Program-made: the position numbers | Shown here: piece by piece, positions 9,001-12,000 of the stretch | Numbering within the stretch: the stretch's first letter is position 1 | Layout of the letters: every line of letters starts with the position of its first letter | Origin: a virus | Lineage: Duplodnaviria; Heunggongvirae; Uroviricota; Caudoviricetes | Strand: one strand, 5' to 3' | IMG/VR virus record: IMGVR_UViG_2563366991_000005 | DNA: 38,098 bases

Positions 9001-12000
9001 GGTGGAAAAGCGAAGGTGGAGTATTGCTATGCAGTAAATGTACCAGGTGACAGGGAAATTGTAACCCACAGCTTTGCTGAGTGGGCTGTGGGGGATTTCA
9101 ACCGGCAGAAGGAGACAGTCCTTTGCGACAAGTTAACCGCTGGTTCAAAGATCACTACGGAGTGCCCGTCAGAGTCATTCGTTGGGAGCCGGAAACACAA
9201 CGGGTTATCTACCTCCGTGAAGGCTATGAGCATGAGTGCTTCAGCCCGCTCGAACAGTTTCGTCGTAAATTCAGGGAAATAGAGGTCGGTCATGAGCACT
9301 AAATTAACCGGCTATGTATGGGATGGTTGCGCTGCGTCAGGCATGAAATTATCCAGCGTGGCAATTATGGCCCGCCTGGCTGATTTCAGTAATGACGAAG
9401 GTGTGTGCTGGCCATCAATTGAAACTATTGCCCGTCAGATTGGCGCGGGGATGAGTACCGTCAGAACGGCTATCGCACGGCTGGAAGCAGAAGGCTGGTT
9501 AACGCGTAAGGCGCGTCGCCAGGGTAACCGCAATGCGTCGAATGTTTATCAGCTTAACGTTGCGAAGCTTCAGGCAGCGGCATTTTCTCAACTGTCAGAT
9601 TCTGACCCGTCAAAATCTGACGCATCAAAATCTGACGCATCAAAATCTGACACGTCAAAATTTGATGCGTCGAAATTTGATGCGTCGAAATCTGGCAAAA
9701 AAGCGGGTTTTCACCCGTCAGAATCTGGCGGGGATCCGTCAGTAAAATCAAAACATGATCCGTCAGATAAAAAACCTTCTCGTCCGGACGCTTCGCAACC
9801 GGACACGCAGACGGCTGAACAGGATTTTTTAACTCGCCATCCTGATGCGGTTGTATTCAGCCCTAAAAAGCGCCAGTGGGGAACGCAGGATGATTTGACC
9901 TGCGCACAGTGGCTCTGGAAAAAAATCATTGCCCTGTACGAGCAGGCCGCCGAATGTGACGGCGAGGTGGTTCGTCCCAAAGAACCGAACTGGACAGCAT
10001 GGGCAAACGAAATTCGCCTGATGTGTGTGCAGGATGGTCGTACTCACAAACAAATCTGCGAGATGTACAGCCGCGTCAGCCGCGATCCGTTCTGGTGCCG
10101 TAACGTGCTCAGCCCGTCGAAGTTGCGGGAAAAATGGGATGAGCTTTCCCTGCGCTTATCGCCGTCCGTCAGCACGCACACAGAAAAACGTGAAGACCCG
10201 TACTTCAAAGCCAGTTACGACAACGTGGACTACAGCCAGATCCCGGCAGGATTCAGGGGGTGATCATGAGTCTTTTGAATGACGTTCAGAAATTCATTGA
10301 AGCCCATCCGGGCCGTACTTCCGGAGACATTGCGGATGCTTTTGCAGGTTACTCACGGCAGCGCGTTCTGCAGTCAGCAAGCAAGTTACGTCAGAGTGGG
10401 CGTGTGGCTCACCGTTGTGAAGGAGATACACGCAGACATTTCCCGCGCCTGACTGAGAGAGCGCAGGAGCCGGAACCACAACCTGTTCGTGAAACCAGAC
10501 CTGTGCGCAATTTCTATGTCGGCACTAACGATCCCCGGGTGATTTTGTGCCTGACCCGCCAGGCTGAAGAGCTGGAGTCCAGGGGCTTATACCGTCGTGC
10601 TGCAACGGTGTGGATGGCGGCATTCCGTGAAAGTCACTCCCAGCCAGAACGAAACAACTTTCTGGCGCGTCGAGAGCGGTGCTTACGGAAAAGCAGCAAG
10701 CGCGCTGTATCGGGTGATGAATGGTATCTGTCAGGGAATTACGTGGGGGCTTAATGACGACGTTAACTCAGTGTCAGCAGCAGGTGCTGGATATGCTGAT
10801 TTCTTACCAGCAAGAACGTGGCTTTCCGCCAACCAATCAGGAGGTGGCAACCATGCTGGGATACCGTTCAGTGAATGCAGCGGTGGAGCATCTTCGCGCA
10901 CTGGAGAAAAAAGGCGTCATCACGATAAAGCGTGGTGTGGCCCGGGGGATCACGCTTCATACCGCGGTGAAGGACGACGACAGCGAGGCGGTCGGGATTA
11001 TCCGCTCACTGCTTGCCGGTGAGGAAAACGCAAGGCTGCGTGCAACTCACTGGTTACATGAGAGAGACCTGAAAGTATGAAGCTGATCCTGCCTTTCCCG
11101 CCCAGCGTGAACACGTACTGGCGACACCCCAACAAAGGGGCGTTTGCTGGTAAGAGCCTGATAAGCGCGGCGGGGCGAAAATTCCAGAGCGCGGCGTGCG
11201 CAGCAATAGTTGAGCAGTTACGTCGTCTGCCGAAACCAACGTCGGCACCTGCTTCAGTGGAGATCGTGTTGTTTCCTCCGGATAACCGGATCCGTGATCT
11301 GGACAACTATAACAAGGCGCTGTTTGACGCCCTGACCCACGCGGGTGTGTGGGAAGACGACAGTCAGGTGAAAAGAATGCTGGTGGAGTGGGGACCGGTT
11401 ATCCCGGAAGGGAAGGTCGAGATCACTATCAGTAAGTACGAGAAAACGGCGGGTGCAGCCGCCTGAGCAAAAGGAGAAACGAAGTATGAATAATCTGATG
11501 GTCATTGATGGTATTGAAGTTCGTCGTGATGCTTATGGGCGTTACAGCCTGAACGATCTGCACAGGGCTGCCGGTTCTCTGGATAAGCATAAGCCTGCAT
11601 TCTGGCTCCGCAATGAGCAAACTGAACGTTTAATAAGCGAGTTGCAGATTTGCAACTCGGTCAATATAGAGCCAGTTAACGTTATTCGTGGCGGAAATAA
11701 CCAGGGGACGTATGTCTGCAAAGAACTGGTGTATGCCTATGCAATGTGGATCAGCCCGGCATTCCATCTGAAGGTGATCCGTACTTTCGATATGGTAACC
11801 AGCGCACCGGAAAAATTATCCGGGCAGGCTGCTGACAAGATGCAGGCTGGTGTGATTCTGCTGGACTTTATGCGCCGGGAGTTAAACCTGTCTAACTCTT
11901 CAGTGCTTGGTGCCTGTCAGAAACTCCAGGAGGCTGTTGGCTTACCGAATCTGGCACCGCGCTATGCCATTGATGCTCCTGCTGACGCGCCTGATGGCTC

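What the first reader, a model, noticed from the sequence alone, without database searches (positions are those of the whole stretch)
9595..9770. In-frame 15-bp iteron array inside the replication initiator gene (putative ori)
Seen: seven near-identical 15-bp direct repeats followed by degenerate CCGTCAG copies, encoding SKSDA-type peptide repeats within the initiator ORF. Established: phage lambda ori consists of iterons inside gene O, bound by O protein itself. Inference: this is the phage origin; the repeat-encoded linker is tolerated in the protein.
Basis: partly seen in the sequence, partly recalled or inferred. Interest (0 to 1): 0.45.

Follow-up and report, generated by a model that had tools for sequence, protein, structure and literature searches.

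The report
Phage replication origin inside initiator gene
A run of eight 15-base repeats inside a prophage's replication-initiator gene is almost certainly the phage's replication origin, built like the classic lambda origin but with a different DNA-binding domain and repeat; this is an expected kind of element, though this version is very common in E. coli and has not been tested experimentally.

Summary
There are seven head-to-tail 15-bp units (9592-9696), an eighth after an 18-bp spacer (9715-9729), and two 24-bp GATC-bearing, A+T-rich repeats (9733-9780). All lie in frame in the 323-aa initiator ORF (9292-10263).

The interpretation (intragenic origin) is well supported by comparison, but no experiment has tested it.
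- In 75 homologous loci from more than 25 enterobacterial genera, synonymous positions of the repeat core TCAAAATCTGAC and of the right segment are conserved. Those of the adjoining N-domain are not.
- The 3-bp inter-unit spacer varies freely.
- The array travels with the N-terminal winged-helix domain through at least three different C-terminal domains.
- N-domain subtypes carry different repeat cores.
- The C-domain here is homologous to lambda O and phi80 gp15, whose annotated iterons lie at the same position.
- The encoded peptide is predicted disordered, and copy number varies naturally.

Differences from lambda: the N-domain is an HTH_36 type, the units abut at 15-bp spacing, the GATC pair is conserved, and there is no P-like loader gene.

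A published footprint shows that the host regulator SrsR binds these same units in the K-12 CPS-53 remnant.

Verdict: new member of a known kind; moderate interest.

The parts
9292..10263 (+). Replication initiator gene (323 aa). It has an N-terminal winged-helix domain, an origin-encoded disordered linker and a lambda-O-like C-terminal domain.
   Evidence: ORF listed. Pfam HTH_36 covers aa 23-70. PHROG 391 'replication initiation O-like' matches at E 9e-135.
9292..9597 (+). Coding region of the N-terminal winged-helix domain (aa 1-102). The predicted recognition helix is aa 54-66 (STVRTAIARLEAE). This domain is the presumed iteron binder.
   Evidence: pLDDT is about 80-89, with helices 43-50 and 54-66 and a wing at 70-73/85-88. 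Foldseek's best matches are MarR/ArsR-type winged helices, with weak E-values. The domain is always co-inherited with the array.
9592..9696 (.). Seven abutting 15-bp iterons. Each has a 12-bp core TCAAAATCTGAC (ideal form a palindrome, TCAGAWTCTGA) and a 3-bp variable spacer. They encode aa 101-135.
   Evidence: establish the array. The logo from 439 units in 76 loci shows the core conserved at all codon positions and the spacer variable. A de novo consensus is the same in about 60 loci.
9697..9714 (.). 18-bp spacer (A6, then GCGGGTTTTCAC) between units 7 and 8.
   Evidence: The hairpin CGGGT/ACCCG followed by a T-run on the minus strand is not conserved in other genera.
9715..9729 (.). Eighth iteron, CCGTCAGAATCTGGC. 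It is the most conserved unit of the family.
   Evidence: In 75 loci, GAA is 64/64, TCT 70/72 and TCA 38/38 among sequences with the consensus amino acid.
9733..9780 (.). Two 24-bp repeats, GATCCGTCAGTAAAATCAAAACAT and GATCCGTCAGATAAAAAACCTTCT. Each has a Dam site and a left iteron half-site, and both are A+T-rich. This is the presumed unwinding/assembly segment.
   Evidence: Repeat family D6. GC is 0.30-0.35, and this is the least stable 40-mer in the gene, starting at 9741. The first GATC is kept in 75/75 loci and the second GAT in 66/75. Val is always GTA and Ser always TCA. The segment is shared with a different iteron type (L088) and with different C-domains. It aligns with the right end of the lambda/phi80 A-rich origin part.
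9805..10161 (+). Coding region of the C-terminal domain (aa 172-290), homologous to the C-terminal domains of lambda O and phi80 gp15.
   Evidence: BLASTP gives 36% identity at E 1e-25 (lambda O) and E 5e-25 (phi80 gp15). tblastn is. pLDDT is 80-93.
10260..10754 (+). Downstream gene: a YfdN/PerC-family protein, found where lambda has P. It is not a recognisable helicase loader.
   Evidence: Pfam PerC at E 1.9e-9. PHROG 1324 'transcriptional activator'. It follows the initiator in only about a quarter of related loci and with either C-domain type.

Best explanation
Region 9592-9780 is the replication origin of this lambdoid prophage. It is embedded in the linker-coding part of its own initiator gene, as ori-lambda is embedded in gene O.

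**Proposed sequence of events**
1. Early rightward transcription (cro, cII-like gene, DUF4222, initiator) makes the initiator.
2. The N-terminal winged-helix domain of the initiator binds the 12-bp cores of the eight 15-bp iterons and builds an O-some-like nucleoprotein complex.
3. That complex destabilises the adjoining GATC-bearing, A+T-rich 24-bp repeats (9733-9780), the least stable stretch of the gene.
4. The lambda-O-like C-terminal domain brings in the host helicase. No P, DnaC or DnaB gene is present, so this would be direct or through an unidentified adaptor.

The same DNA is translated into a disordered Ser/Lys/Asp-rich linker between the two domains, so units can be gained or lost in steps of 15 bp without breaking the protein.

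**What is shown**
- The anatomy of the array.
- Purifying selection on the DNA sequence.
- Co-inheritance and co-variation with the N-domain.
- Positional homology with ori-lambda and ori-phi80.
- Predicted disorder of the linker.
- Natural copy-number variation.

**What is inferred**
- Initiator binding.
- The site of unwinding.
- Helicase recruitment.
- Any role of Dam/SeqA at the two GATC sites.
For: **1. The repeat is real and unique in the window**.

**2. The constraint is on DNA, not on the peptide.**
- SfIV against Citrobacter phage phiNP: in the N-domain, amino-acid identity is 87% but only 51% of conserved residues keep the same codon. In the array plus right segment, identity is 83% but 92% keep the same codon (Fisher p 2e-7).
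- In 75 loci from Escherichia to Yersinia, Proteus, Providencia, Pantoea and Erwinia, the major-codon fraction is 0.91 in the right segment against 0.53 in the N-domain (Mann-Whitney p 1.5e-7).
- In the array, Lys is AAA in 319/325 codons, against 756/1164 elsewhere in the same genes. Ser is TCA or TCT in 82% against 27%.
- In the unit logo, every core position carries information whatever its codon position. The 3 spacer bases, including first and second codon positions, do not. No single reading frame can explain that pattern.

**3. The array is modular with the N-domain.**
- The N-domain plus array occurs with a lambda-O-type C-domain (22 loci), a Phg_2220_C type (55 loci) and other C-domains (10 loci).
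- mEp460_4F5 has the same C-domain, an unrelated N-domain, and its own 23-bp x 5.4 array at the same place.

**4. N-domain subtype and repeat core co-vary**.
- STVRTAI-type helices go with TCAAAATCTGAC.
- STIRNAC goes with CCAGATTCTGAC.
- STVITxI goes with TCAnnnTCTGAA.
- STVKSAI goes with TCAAnnnTTGAC.
- ENTVRSAI goes with TCAGAATTTGA.

**5. The position is homologous to known origins.**
- The C-domain is homologous to lambda O and phi80 gp15.
- Their annotated iterons lie directly upstream of that domain.
- The right end of the A-rich part aligns between them.
- In both lambda O and this gene, the least stable 40-mer is the segment just after the repeats.

**6. The linker is tolerated.**
- Residues 103-170 have pLDDT below 50 between two confident domains.
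- E. coli alleles carry 5, 7 or 8 array units, and loci across the family carry 2-10 core-matching units.
- Viable phages SfII, SfIV and the PhiR phages carry the 5-unit form.

**7. The units are a demonstrated protein-binding array in vitro.** In K-12 a 66-bp DNase I footprint covers four of them (PMC9181523), though the protein used was a host regulator.
Against: - There is no direct evidence that the initiator binds the units, or that replication starts here.
- The A+T-rich segment is only moderately unstable: GC 0.30-0.35, at the 94th-95th percentile of the window. One relative (L092) has three GATCC repeats and almost no A-tract.
- The 15-bp spacing puts neighbouring sites on nearly opposite faces of the helix. 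The roughly two-turn spacing of lambda iterons does not.
- No P-like loader is encoded, so the lambda pathway cannot be copied step by step.
- Alleles with the array reduced to 0-2 units are common. P0154, for example, is seen on 128 contigs. Either those prophages are replication-defective or the array is partly dispensable.
- The only protein experimentally shown to bind the units is host SrsR.
- The p-values compare regions of the same genes, but the sequences are phylogenetically related, so they are not exact probabilities.
Confidence: 0.8

Rival explanations
1. The array is primarily a regulatory site for the host LysR-type regulator SrsR (YgfI). Its role would be as an upstream activating array or internal promoter region for the downstream genes (yfdN and so on), not as an origin.
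For: In K-12 the strongest genomic SELEX peak of SrsR is the yfdP/yfdO spacer of CPS-53. A 66-bp footprint there covers four 11-bp boxes (TCAGAgTcTGa, TCAGATTTTGa x2, TCAaATTTTGa), and SrsR activates yfdONMLK (PMC9181523). Those boxes are the reverse complement of the iteron units of the CPS-53 remnant (L007 2571-2626). Window units 2-4 are identical to them.
Against: - The array is inherited with the initiator N-domain and changes its core when that domain changes. A host regulator's site should not do that.
- The array is conserved in genera as distant as Proteus, Providencia and Yersinia.
- The footprint needed 10-40 uM protein.
- In intact phages the array lies inside a coding region transcribed from upstream. 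It is in a promoter-like spacer only in the deleted K-12 remnant.
- No sigma-70-like promoter was found in 9500-9800.

SrsR binding may well be real and additional, but that does not replace the origin reading.
Confidence: 0.1
2. The units are initiator-binding sites used for control rather than initiation, for example autoregulation, titration or handcuffing as in iteron plasmids. The true origin would lie elsewhere in the phage.
For: This fits the same comparative evidence for initiator binding. Iterons of plasmids and of V. cholerae chromosome II also serve control functions (PMC3401445 abstract). Alleles with very few units are common.
Against: - No other iteron-like cluster exists in 7000-13500 or elsewhere in the window.
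- The array is followed by the least stable segment of the gene.
- It occupies the position of the proven origins of lambda and phi80 relative to the homologous C-domain.
Confidence: 0.06
3. The array is only a low-complexity protein linker that grows and shrinks by replication slippage. Its DNA sequence would have no function of its own.
For: The peptide is predicted disordered. Copy number varies in 15-nt steps. Tandem duplication alone produces identical codons within one array.
Against: - The same 12-bp core, with the same synonymous choices, is kept across more than 25 genera whose N-domain synonymous sites are randomised.
- The amino acid encoded by the spacer codon varies freely.
- The non-repetitive right segment shows the same codon freezing.
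- Substitutions between SfIV and phiNP in this region are mostly non-synonymous.
Confidence: 0.02
4. The constraint comes from an overlapping reading frame (ORFs 9533-9745 + or 9554-9751 -) or from an mRNA structure, not from a DNA site.
For: Two alternative ORFs of 70 and 65 aa are open across the array. The palindromic units can pair with one another: the inverted-repeat arms are 76-85% complementary.
Against: - All 12 core positions are constrained and the 3 spacer positions are free. No combination of reading frames predicts this.
- One alternative frame contains TGA in every unit.
- The internal units break the palindrome (TCAAAATCTGA), so pairing is not maintained.
- Neither idea explains the linkage to N-domain subtype.
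Confidence: 0.02

Closest known systems
ori-lambda (four iterons plus A+T-rich region inside gene O, bound by the N-terminal domain of O)
   Same: - Direct repeats with internal dyad symmetry and an A-rich centre lie in frame in the interdomain linker of the initiator gene.
- They are followed, on the promoter-distal side, by the least stable segment of the gene (PMC7466680).
- The C-terminal domain of the initiator is homologous (36% identity, E 1e-25).
- The ends of the A-rich parts align.
   Different: - The N-terminal DNA-binding domain belongs to another family (Pfam HTH_36), with no similarity to the lambda O N-domain.
- The units are 15 bp and abut one another, against 18-19 bp units spaced 20-24 bp apart.
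- There are eight units rather than four.
- Two conserved GATC sites are present.
- The A+T-rich part is weaker (GC 0.30-0.35 against 0.24).
- There is no P gene.
ori of phage phi80 (four gp15-binding sites inside gene 15; JX871397 annotation)
   Same: - The gene architecture is the same and the C-domain is homologous (E 5e-25).
- The sites lie directly upstream of the C-domain coding part.
- The sequence TAAAAGATCTTCGTCCG at the right border is shared with relatives of the window element.
   Different: - phi80 sites have a 21-bp period and an unrelated sequence (GGAAAxxxTTCCCGAAAAC).
- The phi80 N-domain is lambda-O-like.
- phi80 has a P-like gene 14.
Origins of Stx phages 933W and P27 (six iterons instead of four)
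   Same: Extra iterons are in frame and lengthen the initiator. Copy number differs between related phages, and the extra copies matter for replication (PMC7466680). This parallels the 5/7/8-unit alleles seen here.
   Different: Those are true lambda-type O proteins and lambda-type iterons. Here both the N-domain and the iteron are of another type.
Iteron origins of plasmids (P1, RK2, pPS10, R6K) and V. cholerae oriII
   Same: - Arrays of initiator-binding direct repeats lie next to an A+T-rich unwinding element.
- In V. cholerae oriII the repeats carry GATC, and RctB binding depends on Dam methylation (PMC2865523). That is a precedent for the conserved GATC pair here.
   Different: - Plasmid iterons are intergenic, usually about 17-22 bp at roughly two-turn spacing, and accompanied by DnaA boxes.
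- Here the array is coding, has a 15-bp period, and has no DnaA box nearby.
- The initiator is not a Rep_3/RepA-type protein.
'SrsR box' of E. coli K-12 (TCAGATTTTGC; PMC9181523)
   Same: It is the same DNA. The four boxes footprinted in the yfdP/yfdO spacer are iteron units of the CPS-53 remnant of this origin type, read on the other strand.
   Different: It was described as a host transcription-factor site. The paper does not mention replication iterons. In K-12 the initiator N-domain is deleted, so the cognate phage protein is absent there.

Membership tests
Lambdoid intragenic origin (ori-lambda type) | The origin lies inside the initiator gene, in the part that encodes the linker between the DNA-binding and C-terminal domains. 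| tested here: met
   The array and right segment encode aa 101-164. AlphaFold2 places confident domains at aa 1-102 and 172-290, with pLDDT below 50 in between.
Lambdoid intragenic origin (ori-lambda type) | At least four direct repeats (iterons) with internal dyad symmetry. | tested here: met
   There are eight units. The ideal core TCAGAWTCTGA is palindromic.
Lambdoid intragenic origin (ori-lambda type) | An A+T-rich, easily melted segment lies next to the iterons on the promoter-distal side. | tested here: inconclusive
   Segment 9741-9780 is the least stable 40-mer of the gene, as in lambda. However, GC is only 0.30-0.35, at the 94th-95th percentile of the window, and relative L092 lacks the A-tract.
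Lambdoid intragenic origin (ori-lambda type) | The initiator C-terminal domain is homologous to that of lambda O. | tested here: met
   BLASTP E 1e-25 with 36% identity over aa 141-287. tblastn matches lambda 39196-39495.
Lambdoid intragenic origin (ori-lambda type) | The initiator N-terminal domain is homologous to that of lambda O (the Phage_rep_O family). | tested here: not met
   Pfam finds HTH_36, GntR and MarR-like winged helices only. BLASTP finds no N-terminal similarity to lambda O or phi80 gp15.
Lambdoid intragenic origin (ori-lambda type) | A P-like helicase loader (or a DnaC/DnaB gene) lies next to the initiator. | tested here: not met
   The next gene is PerC/YfdN-like. The RefSeq annotation of a near-identical prophage lists no helicase or loader.
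Lambdoid intragenic origin (ori-lambda type) | The iterons are bound by the initiator's own N-domain. | not testable with these tools
   The evidence is indirect only: co-inheritance and co-variation of N-domain subtype with repeat core.
Lambdoid intragenic origin (ori-lambda type) | The fragment supports initiator-dependent replication. | not testable with these tools
   No experiment on this origin type was found in the literature library.
Plasmid-type iteron origin (Rep_3/RepA-like) | Intergenic iterons of about 17-22 bp at roughly two-turn spacing, DnaA boxes, and a Rep protein with two winged-helix domains. | tested here: not met
   The array has a 15-bp period and lies in coding sequence. 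No DnaA box with at most 1 mismatch occurs between 9010 and 9913. There is no Rep_3-type Pfam hit; RP-C is at E 0.0049, below its cut-off.
SrsR (YgfI) binding array | Several copies of the 11-bp box TCAGATTTTGC/a, as footprinted in K-12. | tested here: met
   The K-12 boxes are L007 2571-2626 on the minus strand. Window units at 9607-9651 have the identical core TCAAAATCTGA. SrsR binding to the window sequence itself was not tested.
Functional DNA element as opposed to a peptide repeat | Synonymous positions are conserved more than in flanking coding sequence across diverged homologues. | tested here: met

The most novel reading that the evidence does not exclude
The iteron array is a shared docking site for two proteins: the phage initiator and the host LysR-type regulator SrsR (YgfI). 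SrsR's strongest binding site in the K-12 genome is the remnant of this origin. SrsR occupancy would then couple replication, or expression of the genes downstream of the origin, to host stationary-phase or stress physiology. It could act as a host brake on the origin or as a phage-exploited activator. This would apply to a prophage family present in at least a third of complete E. coli genomes. The conserved GATC pair would add a Dam/SeqA layer of control.
Probability: 0.2. Interest if true: 0.6.

Novelty: new member of a known kind. Interest (0 to 1): 0.4.

Why it matters
- **It locates the origin of a very common prophage family.** The array-bearing region is found at 80% coverage or more in 1944 of 5426 complete E. 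coli genomes. It also occurs in SfII, SfIV and many other enterobacterial prophages.
- **It defines a 12-bp recognition core and its natural specificity variants.** That gives a ready-made system for studying how a winged-helix initiator reads its iterons.
- **It shows a lambda-O C-domain working in phages without P.** This makes helicase recruitment by 'initiator-only' modules a testable question.
- **It reinterprets the published 'SrsR box' of E. coli K-12 as phage origin iterons.**
- **It has practical uses.** The array explains why short-read assemblies and gene calls often break or frameshift in this gene. It also offers a simple marker, unit number, for typing these prophages.

Tried and rejected
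- **Window-wide CCGTCAG excess** (25 copies against 3.8 expected). Rejected as a signal, because other codon-driven 7-mers are equally common.
- **DnaA boxes.** None lie in or next to the array, and the window total is near chance.
- **GATC density.** It is not enriched in the window. Only the conservation of the pair in the origin is informative.
- **Promoters in 9500-9800.** None were found.
- **Minus-strand terminator-like hairpin in the 18-bp spacer**. It is not conserved outside the Escherichia-type sequences.
- **Iteron-like 22-mer at 9431-9452 inside the N-domain coding region** (D3). Its synonymous sites are not conserved, so it is probably chance.
- **First protein search with the 98-aa N-domain.** It returned mostly truncated fragments and was of little use.
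- **PDB sequence search.** It gave only weak MarR-type hits, and Foldseek gave only weak winged-helix matches.
- **Pfam on the C-domain alone.** It found nothing. The homology to lambda O came from tblastn and BLASTP.
- **Plasmid records carrying the gene.** These were examined as possible autonomous replicons. The one opened (CP085522.1, 41.5 kb, no replicon type) is a noisy assembly full of frameshifts and proves nothing.
- **Literature searches** for the repeat sequence, for SfII/SfIV origins and for 'initiator-solo' modules found no description of this origin.
- **YfdN as a P analogue.** This is not supported. It follows the initiator in only 21 of 87 loci and with either C-domain type.
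Full report
**1. What is in the sequence**

ORF 9292-10263 (+, 323 aa) lies in an early-right operon. The order is a cI-like repressor (7347-8039, minus strand), cro (8137-8397), a cII/CP76-like gene (8390-8947), a small DUF4222 ORF, this ORF, a PerC/YfdN-like gene (10260-10754), a LexA-DBD gene and RusA. The ORF matches Pfam HTH_36 at aa 23-70 and PHROG 391 'replication initiation O-like' at E 9e-135.

Read in codon register, the region contains the following:
- Seven abutting 15-bp units at 9592-9696.
- An 18-bp spacer at 9697-9714.
- An eighth unit at 9715-9729.
- Two copies of a 24-bp repeat, each starting with GATCCGTCAG, at 9733-9756 and 9757-9780.

Tandem Repeats Finder scores the array 118, and no other array in the window exceeds 55. 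The unit consensus with up to 3 mismatches matches 18 times against 3.7 expected, and none of 100 shuffles reaches that number. The 'degenerate CCGTCAG copies' are better described as one more full unit plus a second repeat class.

**2. Anatomy of a unit**

Each unit has a 12-bp core, TCAAAATCTGAC, and 3 variable bases. The first and eighth units (TCAGATTCTGA, TCAGAATCTGG) are nearly perfect 11-bp palindromes of the form TCAGA-W-TCTGA. A second dyad is centred on each unit junction (TCTGAC-NN-GTCAGA). The array is thus an alternation of inverted half-sites about 7.5 bp apart.

In three relatives with another N-domain subtype, the junction palindrome changes symmetrically to TCTGAA-CG-TTCAGA. 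That is the pattern expected of a site read by a two-fold symmetric protein. I could not determine stoichiometry.

**3. Is the constraint on DNA or on the peptide?**

This is the key question, because tandem duplication alone can produce an in-frame peptide repeat.

*Pairwise test.* Phage SfIV and Citrobacter phage phiNP share the N-domain and the array but not the C-domain.
- In the N-domain, 87% of residues are identical, but only 51% of those use the same codon.
- In the array plus right segment, 83% are identical and 92% of those use the same codon (Fisher p 2e-7).

*Family-wide test.* A scan of one genome per species returned 80 loci with an N-domain 58-100% identical to the window's. They come from Escherichia, Citrobacter, Kosakonia, Enterobacter, Buttiauxella, Kluyvera, Yersinia, Pantoea, Erwinia, Rahnella, Proteus, Providencia and other genera. 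Every full-length locus has the array at the same place.
- The mean fraction of sequences using the major codon at conserved residues is 0.53 over 63 N-domain columns.
- It is 0.91 (median 1.0) over 14 columns of the right segment (p 1.5e-7).
- In the right segment Val is always GTA (74/74) and the first Asp always GAT (75/75, which preserves GATC). The three consensus TCA Ser columns are always TCA (62/62, 70/70, 58/58), and the TCT Ser column is TCT in 70/72.
- The only freely varying positions are the third bases of two Gly codons.

*Array codon usage.* This count was made without any motif filter.
- Lys is AAA in 319 of 325 codons, against 756 of 1164 in the rest of the same genes.
- Ser is TCA or TCT in 82% of codons, against 27% elsewhere.

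*Unit logo.* A logo of 439 units shows information at all 12 core positions whatever their codon position. There is little at the three spacer bases, although two of those are first and second codon positions. The amino acid they encode varies freely (A, P, T, G, L, R, N).

Overlapping reading frames cannot produce this pattern. Slippage-driven homogenisation cannot either, because it would fix different synonymous variants in different lineages and would not affect the non-repeated right segment. The p-values compare regions of the same genes, so phylogeny is shared between the two sides, but they are not exact probabilities.

**4. Who reads the DNA?**

Two lines of evidence point to the initiator's own N-domain.

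*Modularity.*
- The N-domain plus array is joined to a lambda-O-type C-domain in 22 loci, to a Phg_2220_C-type C-domain in 55, and to other C-termini in 10.
- Phage mEp460_4F5 has the window's C-domain (96% identical from 9764 onward). Its N-domain is unrelated, and it carries its own array of 23-bp units (5.4 copies) at the same position.

*Co-variation.* A de novo consensus per locus gives TCAAAATCTGAC in about 60 loci whose predicted recognition helix is STVRTAI-like. Other helices go with other cores:
- STIRNAC or STIRSAC (Proteus, Providencia) with CCAGATTCTGAC.
- STVITxI with TCAnnnTCTGAA.
- STVKSAI (E. coli L088) with TCAAnnnTTGAC.
- ENTVRSAI (L092) with TCAGAATTTGA.

The GATC-bearing right segment is shared between iteron types (L088) and between C-domain types. 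It therefore behaves as a common element rather than a specificity element. The mosaic joints fall near 9733 and near 9800.

**5. Relation to proven origins**

The C-terminal domain (aa 176-287) is homologous to the C-terminal domains of lambda O (36% identity, E 1e-25) and phi80 gp15 (E 5e-25). The N-domains are unrelated.

In the lambda and phi80 records, the four annotated iterons lie directly upstream of the part encoding that domain. An A-rich stretch follows them, and its right border (TAAAAGATCTTCGTCCG in phi80) aligns with the window family.

In lambda O the least stable 40-mer of the gene is the known A+T-rich origin region. In the window gene it is 9741-9780, just after the repeats.

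That lambdoid origins consist of iterons plus an A+T-rich tract in the middle of gene O, and that O binds the iterons to form the O-some, is established knowledge as summarised in PMC7466680. The same paper shows that Stx phages carry six iterons instead of four, that the extra ones lengthen O, and that they are needed for efficient replication. That parallels the copy-number variation seen here.

**6. The protein tolerates the array**

AlphaFold2 with a 37-sequence alignment gives three regions:
- A winged-helix domain at aa 1-102, pLDDT about 80-89, with helices 43-50 and 54-66 and a wing at 70-88.
- No structure and pLDDT below 50 for aa 103-170.
- A helical domain at aa 172-290, pLDDT 80-93.

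Foldseek relates the N-domain to MarR/ArsR-type winged helices, weakly.

Among complete E. coli genomes the region matches in 2957 of 5426, and with at least 80% coverage in 1944. In the 60 sampled rows, the full-coverage matches are 371, 401 or 416 bp long, which corresponds to 5, 7 or 8 array units. Four loci with a repeat region of 5-unit length were read directly: SfIV, SfII, K-12 CPS-53 and Citrobacter phage phiNP. Locus L006 has 7 units and L005 has 8.

The window's seven units arose by expansions different from those in L006. Across the family, the count of core-matching units per locus, which includes the eighth unit, ranges from 2 to 10 with a mode of 5-6. Protein alleles with nearly no units also exist. 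Viable phages SfII, SfIV and the PhiR series carry the 5-unit form.

**7. An unexpected link to the literature**

In E. coli K-12 the cryptic prophage CPS-53 retains the array, the right segment and the C-domain (annotated as yfdO) but has lost the N-domain.

A 2022 study of the host LysR-family regulator SrsR (YgfI) reports the following (PMC9181523):
- Its strongest genomic SELEX peak is in the yfdP/yfdO spacer.
- A 66-bp DNase I footprint there contains four 11-bp 'SrsR boxes': TCAGAgTcTGa, TCAGATTTTGa twice, and TCAaATTTTGa.
- SrsR activates yfdONMLK.

Those boxes are exactly the iteron units on the other strand (L007 2571-2626). The paper does not connect them with a replication origin.

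This shows that the units are a protein-binding array in vitro. It also raises a rival or additional reading, namely control by a host factor. I rank it below the origin reading for four reasons. The array tracks the phage N-domain. It occurs in distant genera. It is coding in intact phages. The footprint used 10-40 uM protein.

**8. How it most likely works, and what remains open**

The proposed mechanism has four steps:
1. The initiator is made from the early rightward transcript.
2. Its winged-helix domain occupies the eight cores.
3. The complex opens the adjacent GATC/A+T-rich repeats.
4. The lambda-O-like C-domain recruits the host helicase.

Steps 2 to 4 are inferred.

The differences from lambda are real:
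- The N-domain family differs.
- The units abut at 15-bp spacing, so neighbours lie about 154 degrees apart on the helix. That argues against simple same-face wrapping.
- There is no DnaA box.
- A GATC pair 24 bp apart is conserved. The spacing is 12 bp with three copies in L092 and 21 bp in L088. This suggests Dam/SeqA control or methylation-dependent binding, for which V. cholerae oriII is a precedent (PMC2865523).
- There is no P, DnaC or DnaB gene. The following YfdN/PerC gene is not consistently linked to the initiator.

**9. Comparison and verdict**

The element works like ori-lambda and ori-phi80. It shares their gene position and the C-domain. It fails two membership features of the strict lambda type, namely the N-domain family and a P-like partner. 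It is not a plasmid-type iteron origin.

I file it as a new member of a known kind: an intragenic iteron origin of lambdoid phages with modular initiators. I found no description of this particular origin in the searchable literature, although database annotators already call the protein 'O-like'.

Confidence that this is the origin and that the initiator binds the units is about 0.8. Interest is moderate. The mechanism is expected, but three things add value: the DNA-over-protein selection signature is unusually clean, the family is very widespread, and the identity with the 'SrsR box' is new.

Noticed in passing
L007 (E. coli K-12 NC_000913.3) 2571-2626, which corresponds to window 9592-9651: The published 'SrsR boxes' of the host LysR regulator SrsR/YgfI (PMC9181523) are the iteron units of the CPS-53 remnant read on the other strand. 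They form the strongest SELEX peak in K-12 and are covered by a 66-bp footprint. The paper does not link them to a replication origin.
   Followed up: partly
window 8944-9302: Two overlapping ORFs in different frames lie just upstream of the initiator. One is 8944-9282 (112 aa, PHROG 1170, annotated in SfIV and SfII). The other is 9081-9302 (Pfam DUF4222 at E 3e-19, the one annotated by RefSeq), which overlaps the initiator start. Public records disagree on which of the two is the gene.
   Followed up: partly
window 10260-10754 and the whole early region: No helicase or helicase-loader gene accompanies an initiator that has a lambda-O-type C-domain. The gene in P's position is a PerC/YfdN-family protein with an N-terminal MarR-like hit. 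It follows the initiator in only about a quarter of related loci.
   Followed up: partly
window 9431-9452: A 22-nt stretch inside the N-domain coding region (CCCGTCAGATTGGCGCGGGGAT) is 82% identical to the eighth iteron plus its flank (9714-9735). It encodes the conserved RQIGAG motif. Its synonymous sites are not conserved in other loci, so this is probably coincidence.
   Followed up: partly
window 9704-9717 (minus strand): A terminator-like hairpin (CGGGTGAAAACCCG followed by CTTTTTT) lies in the 18-bp spacer between units 7 and 8. It is present in the Escherichia-type sequences but not conserved in other genera.
   Followed up: partly
L092 1945-1995; L088 1495-1560: The right segment varies in form. 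L092 has three GATCC repeats 12 bp apart and almost no A-tract. L088 has two GATCCGTCAG repeats 21 bp apart plus a third GATC. The invariant feature of this segment therefore seems to be the GATCC(G/A)TCA repeat rather than A+T richness.
   Followed up: no
proteins P0001-P0120, P0033, P0042: Very many database proteins of this family are fragments of 100-170 aa that end in or near the array. Some are called in the +1 frame (NLTRQNLT...). This suggests that short-read assemblies and gene callers often break or frameshift at this repeat.
   Followed up: no
proteins P0133, P0137, P0146, P0154, P0185; P0045-P0055; L058, L086: Natural deletion alleles exist. In some, the array is collapsed to 0-2 units; P0154 is seen on 128 contigs, named Salmonella enterica. 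In others, N-domain residues 1-80 are fused to RusA or to unrelated sequence. Whether the few-unit prophages still replicate is unknown.
   Followed up: no
L004 (mEp460_4F5) 2337-2462 and 2476-2513: A different initiator N-domain is joined to the same C-domain. It carries its own 23-bp x 5.4 array (GGTCAAAATGAC...), followed by ACAGAGAATACA x 3.2. This is presumably another origin type at the same position.
   Followed up: partly
window, CCGTCAG at 25 sites: This heptamer is 6.5-fold more frequent than in dinucleotide shuffles. It ranks with other common codon-driven 7-mers such as CTGGCTG and GCTGCTG, so the window-wide excess is not specific to the origin.
   Followed up: yes
L002 (phiNP) 3309-3373; L088 1374-1463: Tandem Repeats Finder scores a 30-bp period higher than the 15-bp period in these arrays, because units alternate between two subtypes. 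This hints that the functional unit may be a pair of 15-bp units, about three helical turns.
   Followed up: no
window 7690-7719: A short 9-bp tandem repeat (TCAATGACA x 3.3, score 39) lies inside the cI-like repressor gene. It was not examined.
   Followed up: no
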